From a virus (taxonomy: Duplodnaviria; Heunggongvirae; Uroviricota; Caudoviricetes): 21,388 nucleotides of DNA. The position numbers and the translations under genes are program-made. The stretch lies in IMG/VR virus record IMGVR_UViG_3300029080_000073. One strand, given 5' to 3'. The notes beneath the pieces were generated by a model. The model saw nothing but the letters and a program-made list of their open reading frames with translations. It was not told where the DNA came from and did not search any database. Shown here piece after piece: positions 9,647 to 19,749 of the stretch; within the stretch, counting starts at the first letter, position 1; each line of letters opens with the position of its first letter.

Positions 9647-9802
9647 TTACTCCTCAGGTTCGTAAGCTGTGAAGACAGCGACCTCCGTCTGGCCGGTTCG
9701 GATTCGTACCTCGCAGAGGTCTTTCCTCGTTACCAGTGCCGTCACTATGACGGTTAAACAGATGACGATCAGGGCGATTAACATCGCCTTTTGCTGCTTC
9801 AT
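9647..9802 (-). CDS. hok: Hok/Gef family type I toxin (51 aa)
   Basis: MKQQKAMLIALIVICLTVIVTALVTRKDLCEVRIRTGQTEVAVFTAYEPEE matches the Hok/Gef family throughout (TM helix plus conserved C-terminal tail). Confidence 0.9.
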   Translation of the reverse strand: MKQQKAMLIALIVICLTVIVTALVTRKDLCEVRIRTGQTEVAVFTAYEPEE

Positions 9803-9859
9803 AGCCTGCTTCTCCTTGCCTTTCGGCACGTAAGAGGCTAACCTACATTTGTGAGACAT
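9647..9859 (-). CDS. mok: mok-like overlapping reading frame
   Basis: In-frame upstream extension (MSHKCRLASYVPKGKEKQA) of the hok ORF, as in hok/mok/sok loci. Confidence 0.55.
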   Translation of the reverse strand: MSHKCRLASYVPKGKEKQAMKQQKAMLIALIVICLTVIVTALVTRKDLCEVRIRTGQTEVAVFTAYEPEE

Positions 9860-9975
9860 AGATTGGGCCTCAGATTAATGTTAAGCGTCTTGCAGGACGC
9901 GTAATGTTAACTGGGGCTTTTCTCTATCTGCCTTTTGGTGTTCATGCCTGAGACAGATAGCCTCAAGCACCCGCA
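9860..9975 (+). ncRNA. sok: hok mRNA leader / predicted Sok antisense RNA region (exact ends not mapped)
   Basis: Region upstream of mok carries GCUUGAGGCU-like 5' end and local hairpins expected of the hok leader; Sok would lie on the opposite strand here. Confidence 0.3.
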
Positions 9976-14163: not shown

Positions 14164-14355
14164 ATGAGTACAGCCCTTTCTCCGATAGTTTCAGAATTCG
14201 AAACTACCGAACAAGAAAACAGTTACAACGAATGGTTACGCGCTAAAGTGGCGTCAAGCCTTGCAGACCCTCGTCCCTCAATTCCACATGATGAGGTAAT
14301 GGCTGAAATGGAGAATCTTATTGCTCAAATTGCTGTAACTAACAGGAGCGAGTAA
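14164..14355 (+). CDS. type II antitoxin (ParD/RelB-like)
   Basis: 63-aa ORF whose stop overlaps the toxin start (ATGA), directly upstream of a ParE/RelE-fold toxin. Confidence 0.55.
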   Translation: MSTALSPIVSEFETTEQENSYNEWLRAKVASSLADPRPSIPHDEVMAEMENLIAQIAVTNRSE

Positions 14356-14642
14356 TGTTACCCATTTTGTGGCTACCATCTGCTCGCGATGATTTGCGTC
14401 AGATCGTAGCCTATATTGCTAAGGAAAATATTCCTGCAGCACGCAGACTAAAAATACGGATTGAAACGTCTGTTTTAGCCCTCTCTGAGCATCCATATCT
14501 ATATCCGCCAAGTGATCGAGTATCCGGTTTGCGGGAAATTGTGGTTCACCCTAATTATATCGTTTTGTACCGAGTAGCAGCTTCAAGCATTGAAATTGCA
14601 AATATTGTGCATGCCCGCCGACAATTTCCCTTCCCTATCTGA
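14355..14642 (+). CDS. type II toxin, ParE/RelE superfamily
   Basis: 95 aa; DDLRQIVAYIAKENIPAARRL ... GLREIVVHPNYIVLYRV ... IANIVHARR matches the ParE/RelE pattern. Confidence 0.7.
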   Translation: MLPILWLPSARDDLRQIVAYIAKENIPAARRLKIRIETSVLALSEHPYLYPPSDRVSGLREIVVHPNYIVLYRVAASSIEIANIVHARRQFPFPI

Positions 14643-14655
14643 ACTGAACAATTTT

Positions 14656-14688
14656 CACACCCCCTCATTCGAGGGGGTTTTTTTGTCC
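14656..14688 (+). terminator. intrinsic terminator after the toxin gene
   Basis: Stem cccctc / gaggggg with 4-nt loop followed by a 7-T run. Confidence 0.65.
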
Positions 14689-14695
14689 AACACAA

Positions 14696-14738
14696 CAATT
14701 AAAAACTGTTGACACAAAACAGTTTTTAATTGTAGATT
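14696..14738 (+). promoter_or_regulatory. operator 2 overlapping a sigma70-like promoter for the ydfA-dicB operon
   Basis: Perfect 14-bp inverted repeat CAATTAAAAACTGT-tgacacaaa-ACAGTTTTTAATTG; TTGACA (14709..14714) inside it, 17-18 bp before a TAGATT-like -10. Confidence 0.55.
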
Positions 14739-14914
14739 ATTTCCACTACCCCACCCCGCCCCACAGAACGCAGGGCAATACTTCGAGTTACCCGGCAGTG
14801 GTCAGGGGTTAAGTAGCCAGCCCGAGGCGTAAGAACATGACGGCAGGGTTCAACTTTAACTATGCAGCAGGTTTTTGTTCCGCTACCCCGGCGTTAAGGG
14901 GAAATGAGGTCAGC

Positions 14915-15070
14915 ATGGATACTATCGATCTTGGCAACAACGAATCTCTGGTGTGCGGCGTGTTTCCCAATCAGGACGGCACGTTCACCGCGATGACGTA
15001 TACCAAAAGCAAAACGCTTAAAACCGAAAATGGTGCCCGTCGCTGGCTGGAAAGAAACTCAGGTGAGTGA
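14915..15070 (+). CDS. ydfA: YdfA-like small protein (51 aa)
   Basis: Internal Met MDTIDLGNNESLVCGV... preceded by GAGGT; length and position match Qin ydfA (track ORF 14837..15070). Confidence 0.55.
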   Translation: MDTIDLGNNESLVCGVFPNQDGTFTAMTYTKSKTLKTENGARRWLERNSGE

Positions 15071-15071
15071 T

Positions 15072-15200
15072 ATGGATTTCAACACAATCATGGAAAAGGC
15101 TTACGAAGAATACTTCGAAGGCCTTGCCGAAGGCGAAGAAGCCCTCAGCTTCAGCGAATTTAAACAGGCGCTTTCCAGTTCGGCAAAATCTAACGGCTGA
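15072..15200 (+). CDS. ydfB: YdfB-like small protein (42 aa)
   Basis: Hand translation MDFNTIMEKAYEEYFEGLAEGEEALSFSEFKQALSSSAKSNG; starts 2 bp after previous stop; below track cutoff. Confidence 0.5.
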   Translation: MDFNTIMEKAYEEYFEGLAEGEEALSFSEFKQALSSSAKSNG

Positions 15201-15229
15201 TAAGCGAAGCAGCACCGCGAGGAATCAGT

Positions 15230-15448
15230 ATGCAGAAACGAGAACCCGTCATCATCGCGCCAGACTATACCGATGATGAACTTTATGAGTGGATGCACCA
15301 GAAAATTAAGGCTGCGCAGGACCTGAAATGGGCCAATGAAGCCAGGGCTAAGCAGGCTGAAAATCTGTCCGCTCTGGAGCAGGATATCACCAATCTGGAA
15401 AAAGCAGCGGCATTAAGCATTGCCAGAATGATTACATACCCACGTTAA
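15230..15448 (+). CDS. ydfC: YdfC-like protein (72 aa)
   Basis: 72-aa ORF in the ydfA-ydfB-ydfC order of the Qin dicB operon. Confidence 0.55.
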   Translation: MQKREPVIIAPDYTDDELYEWMHQKIKAAQDLKWANEARAKQAENLSALEQDITNLEKAAALSIARMITYPR

Positions 15449-15470
15449 TGGTTAACCAACGAGGCTAATA

Positions 15471-16076
15471 ATGGAATTTAAAGATTTACCAAAAGAAATC
15501 CAGATAATTGCTGCAACGACACTCGGTGATAGTCTGGTGAAAATTGACCCGGCATACACCAAAAAAGAAACCATCGATAATATGGTTCGTAATGTGCGCA
15601 ATGCTTTTTCAGGGCTATATGGTTCTGATAATCAAAAACAGGAAAACGATATTGATGAACGGGTAATTTCTGTTTGCCTGAATGGTCATGTTATTTCAGC
15701 AATCAGAACAGAAACGGCAACTGCTTTTGATTATCTCTGCATGATTCAGAGTCTTGCCGATGTTCTGTTGAAATCAAAAGATTTAGAAAACGATGCAAAT
15801 TTACAGGGGCGCACAATAGCACATCCATATGCACATATTTTAAGCTCTGTGGATGTTAAAAATAATACCCTGCAAGTTGCTTTCGAACATTCACCGCAAG
15901 AGTTAAAAACGAAAAAAGACGATGCGGATAAAAATAATAACGATGCACCTGATTTGTTTATTATCAGCTCAAAGCTGCTGGAAATCATGAAGAGCGAGCT
16001 TGAAAAACACAACATCAAGCCCACTTCTGTAAATTTACGATGGGTAATGAGGATTATTGACGCTTCTCTGTCATAA
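15471..16076 (+). CDS. hypothetical protein (201 aa), AT-rich insertion in the dicB operon
   Basis: ORF track; AATAATGG-type RBS context; markedly AT-rich codon usage versus neighbours; no recognisable motif. Confidence 0.5.
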   Translation: MEFKDLPKEIQIIAATTLGDSLVKIDPAYTKKETIDNMVRNVRNAFSGLYGSDNQKQENDIDERVISVCLNGHVISAIRTETATAFDYLCMIQSLADVLLKSKDLENDANLQGRTIAHPYAHILSSVDVKNNTLQVAFEHSPQELKTKKDDADKNNNDAPDLFIISSKLLEIMKSELEKHNIKPTSVNLRWVMRIIDASLS

Positions 16077-16569
16077 GCTTCTTATCCAGGAATGCTTCAA
16101 ATGTATTGTAAATGGCGTCAATTTCCCCCATTTGCTCGGTAGCAAGAGAAATGGCGTGAGATAGTGAAAGGGGCACCTAGCAATGGGCGTTAAAGGTTTC
16201 CACGGCCAGGCGCATAAGAAACATTACTTTTTCTTCTTGTGTCATAAATTTCACCCTCCTGAGGGTTGGTAATTAAGGAGTTCTCCACGGGTGAGGTGGA
16301 GTGTGTGCGCCGGACACGGGTGAGCATCCGGCACTGACAGTTTACAGAAAGGATATATCCCTGAAAAGTCAGGGCATAACGCGAAAGCGCACGGCGAGGT
16401 AGTTGGTTCATAGATAGCCTGTCGTTAAATTTTCGTCGACCGTGCGCTTCCGGTTGTGGCACTCCGCGAAATGGCGCGGCGGTAAGTATGGCGGGGTTAT
16501 TCCTTCCCCGTTGAGGACACCGGGTTGTCAGGTTGACCATACGCCTGAGTGACAACTCCGCTACAACAA

Positions 16570-16631
16570 CCCATGTTGATTACCTTTTGGCGGGTATTCG
16601 TTTTGTTTTTCCCGTGATACCCGCCCCTTTT
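16570..16631 (+). ncRNA. dicF: DicF-like small RNA (terminator-hairpin 3' end)
   Basis: Between ydfC and dicB as in Qin; 9-bp stem GGCGGGTAT / ATACCCGCC then CCTTTT; 5' end not determined. Confidence 0.4.
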
Positions 16632-16635
16632 AAAG

Positions 16636-16791
16636 TGAATTTTGTGATGCGGTGAATGCGGCTCAGCGCACGCGGAACAGTTAAAACAAGCGGTCTTTTA
16701 CTTGCGTAACAGACATCAACTAACAATCCGGCGTTAATTGTTGACTGGTTAACGTCACCTGGAGGCACCAGGCACCGCATCACAAAATTCA
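16636..16791. repeat. 19-bp long-range inverted repeat pair flanking 118 bp
   Basis: TGAATTTTGTGATGCGGTG (16636..16654) and CACCGCATCACAAAATTCA (16773..16791); inner palindrome CGTTAA-N11-TTAACG. Confidence 0.5.
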
Positions 16792-16808
16792 TTGTTGAGG
16801 ACGCGATA

Positions 16809-16997
16809 ATGGAAACGTTATTACCAAACGTTAATACGTCTGAAGGTTGTTTTGAAATTGGTGTCACTATCAGTAACCCAGTATTTACTGAAGATGCCAT
16901 TAACAAGAGAAAACAAGAACGGGAGCTATTAAATAAAATATGCATTGTTTCAATGCTGGCCCGTTTACGCCTGATGCAAAAAGGATGCTGGCAATGA
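16809..16997 (+). CDS. dicB: cell division inhibitor DicB
   Basis: 62 aa; sequence METLLPNVNTSEGCFEIGVTISNPVFTEDAINKRKQERELLNKICIVSMLARLRLM... recognised as DicB. Confidence 0.8.
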   Translation: METLLPNVNTSEGCFEIGVTISNPVFTEDAINKRKQERELLNKICIVSMLARLRLMQKGCWQ

Positions 16998-17197
16998 ATA
17001 CTACATTTGCACTTGTTCTGACGGTTTTTCTTGTTTCCAGTGAACCGGTTGACATGGTTACTGGCGTATACGGCTCAATGAAAGAATGCATGGTTGCCGC
17101 AGCGGAACAGAAAATTCCCGGTAACTGTTATCCGGTCGATAAAGTTATTCACATGGATAATAACGAAATCCCGGCAGGACTTAAAACAGCACCGTAA
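16994..17197 (+). CDS. ydfD: YdfD-like small secreted/membrane protein (lysis-associated in Qin)
   Basis: Start MNTTFALVLTVFLVSS (signal-peptide-like) overlaps dicB stop by ATGA, as in Qin; track ORF 16940..17197. Confidence 0.55.
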   Translation: MNTTFALVLTVFLVSSEPVDMVTGVYGSMKECMVAAAEQKIPGNCYPVDKVIHMDNNEIPAGLKTAP

Positions 17198-17277
17198 TTA
17201 ATATCCGGTTTCATTTTTATATGCCAGCAATGGCAGGGATTTGTTCACCCTTAAATCTGTAATGAGGTTAAAACAAA

Positions 17278-19749
17278 ATGAGTAAAGTCTTTATTTGCGC
17301 CGCCATTCCGGACGAACAGGCAATAAAGGAAGAAGGTGCAGTCGCTGTAGCCACTGCCATTGAAGCCGGCGACGAACGTCGCGCCCGTGCCAAATTTACC
17401 TGGCAATTCCTGGAGCAATATCCGGCTGCTCAGGACTGCGCTTATAAATTTCTTGTCTGCGAGGATAAACCCGGCATGCCCCGCCCTGCCATCGACTCTT
17501 GGGATGCTGAATATATGCAGGAAAACCGCTGGGATGAGGAGTCAGCTTCCTTTGTCCCGGTTGAGACTGAATCAGATCCGATGAACGTCACTTTTGACAA
17601 GCTGGCCCCTGAAGTACAGAACGCTGTCATGGTTAAGTTCGACACATGTGAAAACATCACCGTTGATATGGTGATTAGTGCACAGGAACTGTTGCAGGAA
17701 GACATGGCAACATTCGACGGACATATCGTTGAAGCGTTGATGAAAATGCCAGAAGTTAACGCCATGTATCCGGAGCTTAAGCTGCATGCCATCGGGTGGG
17801 TTAAGCATAAATGTAAGCCTGGAGCTAAATGGCCCGAAATTCAGGCAGAGATGCGCATCTGGAAAAAACGTCGCGAAGGTGAACGCAAGGAAACCGGAAA
17901 ATACACGTCTGCTGCTGATCTCGTCCGCGCCAGAGCCAATCAACAGAACACTGAAAATTCAACAGGAAAAATCAGCCCGGTCATTGCTGCCACTCATCGC
18001 GAATACAAGCAGACATGGAAAACACTGGATGATGAACTGGCCTACGCTCTGTGGCCTGGTGACATTGATGCCGGAAACATTGACGGCAGCATCCATCGCT
18101 GGGCAAAAAATGAAGTTATCAACAACGACCGCGAAGACTGGAAGCGTATCTCAGCATCAATGCGCAAACAGCCTGATGCCCTTCGCTACGACCGCCAGAC
18201 TATTTTTGGCCTTGTCCGTGAGCGTCCGATCGACATTCACAAAGACCCTGTGGCACTGAACAAATACATTACTGAATACCTGACTACAAAGGGCGTGTTT
18301 GAAGATGAAGGAACAAATCAGAGCGCAACTGATACTCTCTCGTCGCCAGTACCAGAAACTGATGCAGTGGAAACGGCAATTCCGGACAACGAAAAAACCG
18401 AATGCAAAGTGGAAGTCGAACCATCTGTAGAGCGTGAGGGGCCGTTCTACTTCCTCTTCACCGACAAGGATGGCGAAAAATACGGTCGCGCAAACAAACT
18501 TTCTGGTCTGGATAAGGCGCTGTCTGCTGGGGCTACTGAAATCACGAAAGAAGAATATTTCGCCCGCAAAAACGGTACATACTCAGGTTCACAACAAAAT
18601 ACTGGTGCATCTGACACGACCGCACAACCAGGGTCAGTAAAAGTTACCGCTGACGAAGTAAACAAAATTATGCAGGCAGCCAATATCAGCCAGCCTGACG
18701 CCGATGAACTGCTTGCAGTATCACGTGGTGAATTTGTTGAAGGGATTAGCGACCCGAATGATCCGAAATGGGTTAAGGGGATCCAGACCCGCGATTCTGT
18801 GAACCAGAACCAGCAAGAAACGGAACAGAACGACCAGAAAGCGGAACAAAACAGCCCAAATACGCAACAAAACGAGCCAGAAACGAAACAACCTGAACCA
18901 GTAGTGCAACAGGAACCGGAAAAGATCTGCACCGCCTGCGGTCATAGCGGTGGCGGCAACTGCCCTGATTGTGGTGCGGTGATGGGTGACGCAACATACC
19001 AGGAAATATTCGATGGAGAGAATCAGCCTGAAGTTCAGGAAAATGATCCGGAGGAAATGGAAGGCACTGCGCATCAGCACAAGGAGAACACTGGCGGCAA
19101 TCAGCATCATGCCAGCGATAGTGAAACTGGCGAGGCGTCAGATCCCTTAATTAAGGCGAACGGTCATCATAATCTCACATCCACCAGCAGAGCGGGGATT
19201 CATCTGATGATCGACCTTGAAACCATGGGAAAAAATCCCGATGCCCCGATTATCTCAATAGGTGCAATATTTTTCGATCCGCAAACCGGAGATATGGGAC
19301 CGGAATTTAGTAAGACTATCGATCTGGAAACTGCTGGCGGAGTCATTGATCGGGACACCATTAAATGGTGGCTTAAGCAATCACGCGAAGCGCAATCTGC
19401 CATTATGACCGATGAAATCCCGTTAGATGATGCACTGTTACAATTGCGGGAATTTATCGACGAAAACTCCGGTGAATTTTTTGTTCAGGTCTGGGGAAAT
19501 GGAGCCAACTTCGACAACACGATTTTGCGCCGTTCATACGAACGGCAGGGGATCCCCTGCCCGTGGCGTTACTACAACGATCGCGATGTACGCACAATCG
19601 TTGAGCTGGGGAAAGCCATAGACTTCGATGCCAGAACGGCTATTCCATTCGAAGGTGAGCGCCATAATGCACTTGATGACGCCCGTTACCAGGCAAAATA
19701 CGTTTCAGCTATCTGGCAAAAACTGATCCCGAGTCAGGCTGATTCTTAA
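17278..19749 (+). CDS. 823-aa protein: YdfE/RecE-N-like region, zinc ribbon, C-terminal DEDDh (DnaQ-like) 3'-5' exonuclease domain
   Basis: C-terminal exonuclease motifs MIDLETMG, WGNGANFDNTIL and HNALDDARYQ; C-x2-C-x7-C-x2-C ribbon (CTACGHSGGGNCPDC); Q/E/N-rich linker. Confidence 0.7.
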   Translation: MSKVFICAAIPDEQAIKEEGAVAVATAIEAGDERRARAKFTWQFLEQYPAAQDCAYKFLVCEDKPGMPRPAIDSWDAEYMQENRWDEESASFVPVETESDPMNVTFDKLAPEVQNAVMVKFDTCENITVDMVISAQELLQEDMATFDGHIVEALMKMPEVNAMYPELKLHAIGWVKHKCKPGAKWPEIQAEMRIWKKRREGERKETGKYTSAADLVRARANQQNTENSTGKISPVIAATHREYKQTWKTLDDELAYALWPGDIDAGNIDGSIHRWAKNEVINNDREDWKRISASMRKQPDALRYDRQTIFGLVRERPIDIHKDPVALNKYITEYLTTKGVFEDEGTNQSATDTLSSPVPETDAVETAIPDNEKTECKVEVEPSVEREGPFYFLFTDKDGEKYGRANKLSGLDKALSAGATEITKEEYFARKNGTYSGSQQNTGASDTTAQPGSVKVTADEVNKIMQAANISQPDADELLAVSRGEFVEGISDPNDPKWVKGIQTRDSVNQNQQETEQNDQKAEQNSPNTQQNEPETKQPEPVVQQEPEKICTACGHSGGGNCPDCGAVMGDATYQEIFDGENQPEVQENDPEEMEGTAHQHKENTGGNQHHASDSETGEASDPLIKANGHHNLTSTSRAGIHLMIDLETMGKNPDAPIISIGAIFFDPQTGDMGPEFSKTIDLETAGGVIDRDTIKWWLKQSREAQSAIMTDEIPLDDALLQLREFIDENSGEFFVQVWGNGANFDNTILRRSYERQGIPCPWRYYNDRDVRTIVELGKAIDFDARTAIPFEGERHNALDDARYQAKYVSAIWQKLIPSQADS

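What the first reader, a model, noticed from the sequence alone, without database searches (positions are those of the whole stretch)
16636..16791. 19-bp long-range inverted repeat bracketing 118 bp between the DicF-like RNA and dicB
TGAATTTTGTGATGCGGTG and its reverse complement flank a segment containing a CGTTAA-N11-TTAACG palindrome. In the operon transcript this would form a long stem, a likely RNase III processing site separating DicF from dicB mRNA or masking the dicB start. Alternatively it could be MITE-like terminal repeats.
Basis: seen in the sequence. Interest (0 to 1): 0.45.

Follow-up and report, generated by a model that had tools for sequence, protein, structure and literature searches.

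The report
RNase III stem enclosing STnc100-like RNA
The inverted repeat is real and forms a conserved 21-bp RNA stem, the counterpart of the known RNase III cut site between DicF and dicB in E. coli K-12, and the 118 bases inside it fold into a pseudoknotted prophage RNA domain related to the STnc100/PasD small RNAs.

Summary
There is a perfect 19-nt inverted repeat at 16636-16654 and 16773-16791, which extends to 21 bp. The locus is the orthologue (88.7% identical) of the K-12 Qin dicF-dicB spacer. There, RNase III processing of read-through transcripts gives a 72-nt DicF, whose 3' end is 19 nt past the terminated form and so lies inside this 5' arm. The stem is under RNA-level selection: across 29 relatives from several genera, 14 of 21 pairs show compensatory changes and 94.9% of cells pair. 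G·U pairs make the stem strand-specific. The MITE reading is rejected. Masking of the dicB start is predicted in this variant but is not conserved.

The enclosed 118 nt is not a spacer. It is a structured domain (P2, P5, P6 and a linker-to-loop pseudoknot) that hits Rfam STnc100 below threshold (34.6 vs 47 bits). A model built only from its in-operon relatives finds bona fide STnc100 genes. In this subfamily the short family closing stem is lengthened into an RNase III-sized stalk. The function of the core is unknown.

The parts
16634..16654 (+). The inner ~10 bp correspond to the family-typical P1. The outer ~11 bp are the extension found in the in-operon subfamily.
16773..16793 (+). 3' arm of closing helix P1
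   Evidence: 14 of 21 pairs with changes on both sides; 94.9% of cells paired
16645..16650 (+). Inferred zone of RNase III cleavage on the 5' arm, equivalent to the 3' end of the 72-nt K-12 DicF. The partner cut, with a 2-nt 3' overhang, would lie at about 16779-16784.
   Evidence: Inference from PMC5069750 and PMC9438474 (53 vs 72 nt), the Rfam DicF coordinates in K-12 (L001 2686-2737), arm coordinates and the 2-nt overhang rule (PMC6212723). Not measured.
16655..16670 (+). Junction AAU (invariant A and U) and hairpin P2 (UGCG 16657-16660 / CGCA 16667-16670) with an invariant GCG in the loop region. This is the 'v2' form of P2; STnc100 proper has CCCCU-GUGCGG-AGGGG here.
   Evidence: (invariant columns); Rfam alignment
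16678..16684 (+). 5' strand of the pseudoknot (CAGUUAA), in the linker after P2
16685..16729 (+). Variable insert. Length and sequence differ between relatives. Small hairpins are predicted but not supported by comparison.
16730..16756 (+). Hairpin P5 (8 bp: 16730-16737 with 16749-16756; 11-nt loop).
   Evidence: 5 of 8 pairs compensatory in the subfamily; 8 of 8 family-wide
16741..16747 (+). 3' strand of the pseudoknot (UUGACUG) in the P5 loop. It pairs with 16678-16684 (7 bp, one U·G).
   Evidence: own-loop complementarity median 7 nt vs 4 nt for foreign loops; 61 linker/loop combinations, at least 15 different complementary pairs
16758..16772 (+). Hairpin P6: CCUGG-AGGCA-CCAGG, nearly invariant across the family. 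Its middle pair switches U-A to G-C.
16589..16631 (+). Upstream neighbour: terminator-like hairpin and U-tract of the DicF-like RNA. The 5' arm of P1 starts 3 nt after it.
   Evidence: no Rfam DicF hit
16797..16997 (+). Downstream neighbour: Shine-Dalgarno GAGG (16797-16800) and dicB (ATG 16809 to stop 16997)

Best explanation
The repeat acts in RNA, on the + strand, in transcripts that read through the leaky terminator of the DicF-like RNA into dicB. Its two arms pair over 21 bp and close a compact, pseudoknotted RNA domain of about 118 nt that belongs to the prophage STnc100/PasD superfamily. Stand-alone members of that superfamily close the domain with only 4-9 bp. In this in-operon subfamily the helix is lengthened to about two helical turns, which makes it a substrate for RNase III. 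It works like the processing stalks that flank 16S and 23S rRNA. Cleavage in the stem separates the upstream DicF-like RNA (leaving about 19 extra nt, the '72-nt DicF' of K-12) from the dicB-ydfD mRNA, whose new 5' end would lie about 25-30 nt before the AUG. It also frees the enclosed domain as an RNA of roughly 130-140 nt with a short residual stem.

Shown here: the helix, its conservation and covariation, its strand specificity, the architecture of the enclosed domain and its relation to STnc100, and orthology to the K-12 locus. Taken from the literature for K-12: RNase III dependence and the +19-nt DicF end. Inferred: the exact cut positions, release of the core as a stable RNA, and any effect on dicB expression. 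The biochemical role of the core domain is unknown.
For: 1. The helix is real and far beyond chance.
2. The region is orthologous to K-12 Qin dicF-dicB: 88.7% identity over 600 nt, with matches in 4729 of 5426 complete E. coli genomes. The K-12 arms differ only by C-G to U·G and G-C to G·U.
3. [quoted passage not shown] With Rfam DicF ending at L001 2737 and the arm at L001 2745-2765, that end lies inside the 5' arm.
4. Covariation of the 21-bp stem in 29 relatives (E. coli, Citrobacter, Klebsiella, Raoultella, Enterobacter, Pseudescherichia): 94.9% of cells paired against 35-48% when partners are slid, 14 of 21 pairs changed on both sides, 0 of 500 shuffles as high. Duplex energies are -25 to -41 kcal/mol with quite different arm sequences.
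5. Many G·U and U·G pairs, and 138 bits on the + strand against 13.7 on the - strand, show that selection acts on the + strand RNA.
6. The interior hits Rfam STnc100 at 34.6 bits, E = 1.2e-5. A covariance model built only from in-operon relatives recovers Rfam-positive STnc100 genes at 25-53 bits. P1, P5 and P6 co-vary family-wide, and so does the pseudoknot.
7. Stem length tracks context: 4-9 bp in stand-alone STnc100 genes, about 18-22 bp in the dicB/kil-region subfamily.
Against: No cleavage data exist for this sequence. The primary paper (Faubladier 1990) could not be read, so placing the 72-nt end in this stem rests on secondary citations plus arithmetic (uncertainty of about 5 nt). Ragunathan 2023 (PMC10448788) discusses only the other RNase III site, the 5' end of the 190-nt DicF, and does not mention the 72-nt species. 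The DicF-like RNA here is divergent and fails Rfam DicF, so the 'DicF' side of the story may differ. Some in-operon relatives (P7, L143) keep a short 9-bp stem, so a long stalk is not obligatory for embedded copies. Release of a stable core RNA has never been reported in the papers I could search.
Confidence: 0.7

Rival explanations
1. The long helix is purely architectural or regulatory and is not cleaved. It insulates the fold of the enclosed domain from flanking sequence, or it acts as a 5' structure that controls dicB translation by sequestering the Shine-Dalgarno sequence, or dicB mRNA stability, without RNase III.
For: In the read-through RNA the SD bases GAGG (16797-16800) are predicted to be 97-100% paired with CCUU 16626-16629, stacked under the stem. 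They become about 0.9 or more unpaired for AGG, with the first G staying largely paired, if the 5' end is moved to 16779-16784. All family members need a closing helix.
Against: The predicted SD masking is not conserved in 13 relatives with other downstream genes. A helix of 6-9 bp suffices for the fold elsewhere in the family, so the extra ~11 bp need another reason. An RNase III-dependent DicF 3' end at this position is reported for K-12 (PMC5069750, PMC9438474).
Confidence: 0.17
2. DNA-level element: terminal inverted repeats of a MITE-like mobile element, or a cruciform or protein-binding palindrome.
For: A perfect 19-bp inverted repeat brackets a ~118-bp segment. The segment is found in many prophages next to different downstream genes.
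Against: There is a single copy in the window. E. coli copies always follow a DicF-type terminator. No direct repeat flanks the arms (AAAG... versus ...TTGT). Arm sequences differ completely between genera while complementarity is kept, the opposite of transposase-recognised ends. G·U pairs would be A·C mismatches on the other strand, and the covariance model scores 138 vs 13.7 bits by strand.
Confidence: 0.02
3. A processive antitermination RNA of the HK022 put type, or a riboswitch-like leader: the domain modifies RNA polymerase or senses a ligand to control downstream genes, and the stem is its P1.
For: The domain is compact and pseudoknotted with near-invariant junction nucleotides. It always lies upstream of a gene start, or in stand-alone copies upstream of an intrinsic terminator. 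This resembles leader-RNA architecture.
Against: The covariance model finds nothing in the HK022 genome, even with filters off and E<=10. No Rfam riboswitch or ribozyme family matches. A 21-bp P1 of -32 kcal/mol is too stable to switch.
Confidence: 0.08

Closest known systems
RNase III processing of the dicBF (ydfABC-dicF-dicB-ydfD) transcript of E. coli K-12 prophage Qin (Faubladier, Cam & Bouché 1990; cited in PMC5069750, PMC9438474, PMC2777011, PMC10448788)
   Same: Orthologous locus: same gene order, 88.7% identity, both arms conserved. The stem sits immediately after the DicF terminator, where the 72-nt DicF 3' end maps.
   Different: The upstream sRNA here is a divergent DicF-like variant that Rfam DicF does not recognise. 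The arms are fully Watson-Crick here, whereas K-12 has two G·U pairs. The variable insert differs. The papers I could read do not describe the enclosed domain as a structured RNA.
Rfam STnc100 (RF02076) and the related PasD sRNAs of pathogenic E. coli (bioRxiv 10.64898/2026.05.13.724894; PMC12370729)
   Same: Same architecture and near-identical conserved motifs: GGUGAAU......UCACCNGGAGGCACCNGGCACC, a closing stem, a P5 hairpin and a pseudoknot. Detection is reciprocal. Both are prophage-borne.
   Different: The score is below the Rfam gathering threshold (34.6 vs 47). P2 has a different sequence and register. There is no promoter or terminator of its own: it is embedded in an operon 5' of dicB. 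The closing stem is 21 bp instead of 4-9 bp. It lacks the 3' tail with the terminator hairpin that stand-alone members have.
RNase III processing stalks of the rrn operons (flanking sequences of 16S and 23S rRNA pair and are cut)
   Same: Long-range pairing of sequences flanking a structured RNA creates the dsRNA substrate. Cleavage separates neighbouring products of one transcript.
   Different: The scale differs (118 nt vs 1.5-2.9 kb). The released RNA has no known function. This analogy comes from established knowledge and was not tested here.
Other RNase III sites in 5' leaders (phage lambda N leader, adhE; from established knowledge)
   Same: A stem in a leader whose cleavage can change access to the ribosome-binding site. 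Such an effect is predicted for this variant.
   Different: The predicted unmasking is not conserved among relatives. No experimental link to dicB translation is known.

Membership tests
E. coli RNase III intramolecular substrate | About two helical turns (~20 bp or more) of largely uninterrupted dsRNA | tested here: met
   21 contiguous pairs (19 Watson-Crick, one G·U, one A-U), -32.1 kcal/mol. Relatives have 18-22 bp, some with a 1-nt bulge.
E. coli RNase III intramolecular substrate | rnc-dependent double cleavage leaving 2-nt 3' overhangs (PMC6212723) | not testable with these tools
   Reported only indirectly for the K-12 orthologue (72-nt DicF; PMC5069750, PMC9438474).
E. coli RNase III intramolecular substrate | [quoted passage not shown] | tested here: inconclusive
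   If the cut follows 16645, the positions are G16644-C16783 and U16645-A16782, which fits. The cut position itself is inferred.
Orthologue of the K-12 dicF-dicB spacer | Collinear alignment between a DicF-type terminator and dicB, with both arms retained | tested here: met
   dicB confirmed with NF049927.
Rfam STnc100 (RF02076) | Score at or above the curated gathering threshold (47 bits) | tested here: not met
   34.6 bits, E = 1.2e-5, model positions 21-154 of 206. The K-12, P7, L003 and L036 copies also fail at the gathering threshold.
Rfam STnc100 (RF02076) | Shared consensus structure (closing stem, internal hairpins, CCNGG-AGGCA-CCNGG hairpin) supported by covariation | tested here: met
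   A model built from in-operon copies finds Rfam-positive STnc100 genes. The alignment used is fitted to the model, so it leans towards the structure.
Rfam STnc100 (RF02076) | Independent sRNA gene with a 3' tail and intrinsic terminator | tested here: not met
   The 3' arm is followed after 4 nt by the dicB Shine-Dalgarno sequence and start. No terminator-like site lies between 16793 and 16809.
DicF (RF00039), for the upstream RNA | Match to the DicF covariance model | tested here: not met
   No hit at E<=10 in 16100-17100. K-12 DicF scores 76.7 bits.
MITE | Conserved terminal inverted repeats, target-site duplication, dispersed multiple copies | tested here: not met
   One copy in the window, no flanking direct repeat, arms that vary and co-vary between genera.
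HK022 put antiterminator RNA | Sequence or structure similarity to putL or putR | tested here: not met
   No match in the complete HK022 genome, filters off, E<=10 (best 10.9 bits, E = 0.89, in the head/tail (structural) gene region).

The most novel reading that the evidence does not exclude
The dicBF-type operon makes a third product that has not been recognised. RNase III would excise the ~130-140-nt pseudoknotted STnc100/PasD-like domain from between DicF and dicB, and this RNA would have a function of its own, in trans or as a protein- or ribosome-binding decoy. That function would be shared by the conserved 5' domains of STnc100/PasD sRNAs of pathogenic E. coli, and would be distinct from their base-pairing seeds.
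Probability: 0.25. Interest if true: 0.6.

Novelty: new member of a known kind. Interest (0 to 1): 0.38.

Why it matters
DicF and DicB are toxic division inhibitors, and their relative output from one transcript depends on termination and processing between them. Identifying the stem as the conserved, co-varying RNase III stalk explains how the two products are uncoupled.

The enclosed segment belongs structurally with STnc100/PasD, sRNAs found in Stx phages and in EPEC/EHEC prophages. This shows that those sRNAs share a pseudoknotted domain that has been kept across genera and across two modes of biogenesis: an independent gene, and excision from an operon. That argues the domain itself has a function nobody has tested.

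It also gives a concrete, cheap experiment: an rnc-dependent RNA of ~130-140 nt from the dicF-dicB spacer.

Tried and rejected
1. HK022 put-like antiterminator: the whole HK022 genome was fetched and searched with the covariance model, with default filters and with filters off. Nothing was found.
2. MITE: rejected, as set out under the rival explanations.
3. SD masking as a conserved function: partition-function folding of read-through versus cut RNAs in 14 loci gave inconsistent results. It is kept only as a variant-specific prediction.
4. Family-wide MAFFT alignment (A2) mis-registers the 5' strand of P5 between subfamilies, so it was not used for pair counts. The model-based alignment (A4) handles P1, P5 and P6 but scrambles the loop strand of the pseudoknot in distant members. 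The pseudoknot was therefore tested by a per-sequence parse with shuffled-loop and foreign-loop controls.
5. Literature: Faubladier 1990, Faubladier & Bouché 1994 and Murashko 2017 are not held. The supplement of the RNase III cleavage map is not held. A full-text search for the conserved P6 sequence found no paper.
6. Idea that the ~137 nt upstream of the DicF-like RNA is a decayed second copy of the module (as in L003 and L026, where a module directly precedes a DicF-like RNA): the alignment shows only scattered similarity and the model gives no hit. Left open.
7. A small ORF inside the element: ATG/GTG at the stem is not conserved and hits a stop after 3-4 codons.

Full report
**Observation.** The window carries a perfect 19-nt inverted repeat, 16636-16654 (TGAATTTTGTGATGCGGTG) and 16773-16791, with 118 nt between the arms (pair I1). 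The 19-mer occurs nowhere else in the window, even with three mismatches allowed, and no dinucleotide-preserving shuffle out of 100 gave two matches. Read from the sequence, pairing continues through G16635·U16792 and A16634-U16793, giving 21 bp. The inner palindrome is CGTTAA 16732-16737, 11 nt, TTAACG 16749-16754. Folding 16560-16830 as RNA places the repeat as the closing helix of a multi-hairpin domain (-95.5 kcal/mol, z = -6.15). The duplex alone is worth -32.1 kcal/mol.

**Context.** The ORF at 16809-16997 is DicB (NF049927, 137 bits against a cutoff of 100). It is followed by a ydfD-like ORF and a large exonuclease gene. Upstream, at 16589-16631, lies a terminator-like hairpin with a U-tract. 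The 601-nt region matches 4729 of 5426 complete E. coli genomes. It is 99.5% identical to strain FDAARGOS_1077 and 88.7% identical, over its whole length, to the K-12 Qin prophage locus ydfABC-dicF-dicB-ydfD. In the three-way alignment both arms are conserved. K-12 differs by C-to-U in the 5' arm and C-to-U in the 3' arm, which turns two adjacent G-C pairs into G·U pairs. FDAARGOS_1077 has one U·G pair. The RNA upstream is DicF-like only by position and terminator: its body differs from K-12 DicF and Rfam DicF does not match it at E<=10, whereas K-12 DicF scores 76.7 bits.

**What is known about this site.** Papers citing Faubladier et al. [quoted passage not shown] A review lists the dicA-dicF-dicB intergenic regions among RNase III substrates (PMC2777011). 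In K-12 (locus L001) Rfam DicF ends at 2737 and the 21-nt arm occupies 2745-2765. Nineteen nt further is therefore about 2756-2757, or up to 2761 if the terminated form includes the U-tract. Either way the end lies inside the 5' arm. The equivalent window positions are 16645-16650. With the canonical 2-nt 3' overhang (PMC6212723), the partner cut would fall at about 16779-16784, 25-30 nt before the dicB AUG. This placement is my inference, because the primary paper could not be read. A second, separate RNase III site makes the 5' end of the 190-nt DicF (PMC10448788). In the window it corresponds to the long hairpin at about 16375-16458 (I5, 71).

**Selection on the stem.** I collected relatives with two pattern scans. 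In-operon relatives from E. coli/Shigella, E. albertii, E. ruysiae, Citrobacter, Klebsiella, Raoultella, Enterobacter and Pseudescherichia all have a long helix at this position, with quite different arm sequences. Examples are AGCAGGCTTTAAGGTGCGGTG, ACAGGCTTTGCAATGCGGTG, CAACAGACCTTGCAATGCAGTG and TTAAATTTAT...GTGGTG. Duplex energies are -25 to -41 kcal/mol, sometimes with a one-nucleotide bulge. On a 29-sequence alignment, 94.9% of cells in the 21 pairs are standard pairs, against 35-48% when partners are slid by 1-3 columns. Fourteen of 21 pairs change on both sides, and no shuffle out of 500 reaches the observed covariation. The many G·U and U·G pairs would be A·C mismatches on the other strand. 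A covariance model scores the + strand at 138 bits and the - strand at 13.7. The helix is therefore an RNA feature of the dicB-sense transcript.

**The interior is a structured RNA.** Rfam matches 16638-16786 to STnc100 (RF02076) at 34.6 bits, E = 1.2e-5, below the gathering score of 47. The motif CACCNGGAGGCACCNGGCAC is found in more than 120 viral contigs. The sequences share one architecture:
- a closing stem P1 ending in GGUG/CACC, followed by AAU;
- hairpin P2 with an invariant GCG;
- a linker, then a variable insert;
- hairpin P5, then a single A;
- hairpin P6 (CCNGG-AGGCA-CCNGG), abutting the 3' arm of P1.

Those with P2 = CCCCU-GUGCGG-AGGGG are bona fide Rfam STnc100 genes. They often occur in tandem and next to phage tRNA clusters. 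The window belongs to a second type (P2 = UGCG-GCUCAG-CGCA), which does not reach the Rfam threshold in K-12, P7 or the other loci tested. Within 38 in-operon sequences, 97.2% of cells pair, and P1, P5 and P6 have 5, 5 and 2 pairs with compensatory changes. A model built from these 38 alone finds the window once (138 bits), phage P7 (122.8 bits) and the Rfam-positive STnc100 genes (25-53 bits, E from 4e-9 to 6e-3). On the resulting 117-sequence alignment, 9 of 10 P1 pairs and 8 of 8 P5 pairs change on both sides. That alignment is fitted to the model, so it leans towards the structure.

**Pseudoknot.** The linker after P2 (window CAGUUAA, 16678-16684) is complementary to the P5 loop (UUGACUG, 16741-16747). 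Other members have CUGGUG/CACCGG, AUCAGC/GCUGGU, CCAGUC/GACUGG, AAGGUUG/CAACCUU, AGACUGACAAA/UUUGUCAGUCU and many more. Over 61 distinct linker/loop combinations, the median complementarity to a sequence's own loop is 7 nt, against 4 nt to loops of other members, and 49 of 61 have 6 or more contiguous pairs.

**Why the stem is long here.** Stand-alone STnc100 genes close the domain with 4-9 bp. The dicB/kil-region subfamily extends it to about 18-22 bp. The inner ~10 bp (UGAUGCGGUG/CACCGCAUCA) correspond to the family P1, and the outer ~11 bp are the addition. The best explanation is a processing stalk. Embedded copies cannot get their ends from a promoter and a terminator, and RNase III cutting in the extension separates the upstream RNA, the domain and the downstream mRNA. 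A cut after about 16645 would leave the domain with a 9-bp P1, as in free-standing members. That step is inference. P7 and L143 are embedded but keep a 9-bp stem, so the extension is not universal. Downstream genes differ among relatives: dicB, other small proteins, short hydrophobic peptides and TerB-like proteins. The element is therefore not specific to dicB.

**Other readings.**
- SD masking: in the read-through RNA of this variant, GAGG 16797-16800 is predicted paired with CCUU 16626-16629 and mostly freed (AGG at >=0.84 unpaired; the first G stays largely paired) after the inferred cut. The same calculation on 13 relatives is inconsistent.
- MITE: one copy, fixed context, no target-site duplication, co-varying arms, strand-specific pairs.
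- put-type antiterminator: no match in HK022.
- No other Rfam family matches.

**Comparison and novelty.** As an RNase III site between DicF and dicB, the feature is the orthologue of one described in 1990. It is ordinary for E. coli prophages and present in most genomes. I did not find the following in the papers I could search, including the recent STnc100/PasD survey: that the 'spacer' is a divergent STnc100/PasD-type domain, that the family shares a pseudoknot, and that one subfamily has turned the closing stem into an RNase III-sized stalk. The function of the domain is unknown. I rate the finding as a new member of known kinds with a modestly interesting extension.

Noticed in passing
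window 16560-16633 (+): The RNA occupying the DicF position has a DicF-type terminator (GGCGGG...CCCGCC, then UUUU) but a different 5' body. About 9 nt are missing relative to K-12 and there is no UUUCUGGUGACG seed. Rfam DicF does not match it at E<=10. Strain FDAARGOS_1077 carries the same variant, and other loci show further 5' variants (e.g. UGCUGUGUGUAGUCUUUGGCGG). Its targets may differ from those of K-12 DicF.
   Followed up: partly
window 16375-16458 (+): A long imperfect hairpin (core arms 16382-16394 / 16440-16452) lies about 180 nt before the terminator end. This is where the RNase III-generated 5' end of the '190-nt DicF' of K-12 would map. The DicF-like RNA is thus bracketed by two RNase III-type helices.
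   Followed up: partly
window 16452-16575 (+); L003 3435-3660 (-); L026 10150-10380 (+): In some phage loci (L003, L074) a short-stem copy of the module directly precedes a DicF-like RNA, so the order is reversed relative to this window. The ~137 nt upstream of the DicF-like RNA here share only scattered motifs with such modules (GTTGTGG..., TGTCAG-N-TGACCA, ...CAACAACC) and are not detected by the covariance model. A decayed second copy is possible but not shown.
   Followed up: partly
window 9797-9972 (-): Full-length match to Rfam sok antitoxin (RF01794, 120.1 bits). This indicates a hok/sok-type toxin-antitoxin locus in the same prophage.
   Followed up: no
window 14355-14642 (+), 14659-14678 (+): A 95-aa ORF resembles RelE/StbE toxins (TIGR02385, 26.1 bits, just under the 27.9 cutoff). 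It is followed by a strong terminator-like hairpin with a T-run.
   Followed up: no
window 14695-14738 (+): A 39-nt near-perfect palindrome (ACAATTAAAAACTGTTGACACAAAACAGTTTTTAATTGT) contains the only sigma-70-like site in 14600-17400 (TTGACA-18-TAGATT). It is probably the operator and promoter of the dicBF-type operon, i.e. the dicBp equivalent.
   Followed up: no
L013 2265-3380 (-), L101 4349-5513 and 8357-8555 (+), L027 3121-3798 (+): Bona fide STnc100 genes occur as tandem arrays of 2-5 diverged copies per phage. In L013, L027 and L004 these lie immediately downstream of phage tRNA clusters. L101 (no tRNA cluster detected) also has an isrI hit between copies.
   Followed up: no
L124 (phage P7) 2998-3119 (+); phage D6: The P1-like phages P7 and D6 carry a full copy of the in-operon type of module (122.8 bits) in the C1-controlled ban operon. 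It lies after tRNA-Asn and tRNA-Thr and 34 nt before a terB-like gene, has only a 9-bp closing stem, and is not annotated in the record.
   Followed up: partly
one search hits H31 (Actinobacillus phage vB_Apl-pPE4) and H53 (Aeromonas phage AP1): Phages of unrelated hosts show 83-87% identity to this E. coli prophage segment. This suggests contamination, mis-assembly or recent transfer in those records.
   Followed up: no
window 16994-16997 (+): The dicB stop overlaps the start of the ydfD-like (DUF1482-type) ORF (ATGA), as in K-12. This is consistent with translational coupling.
   Followed up: no
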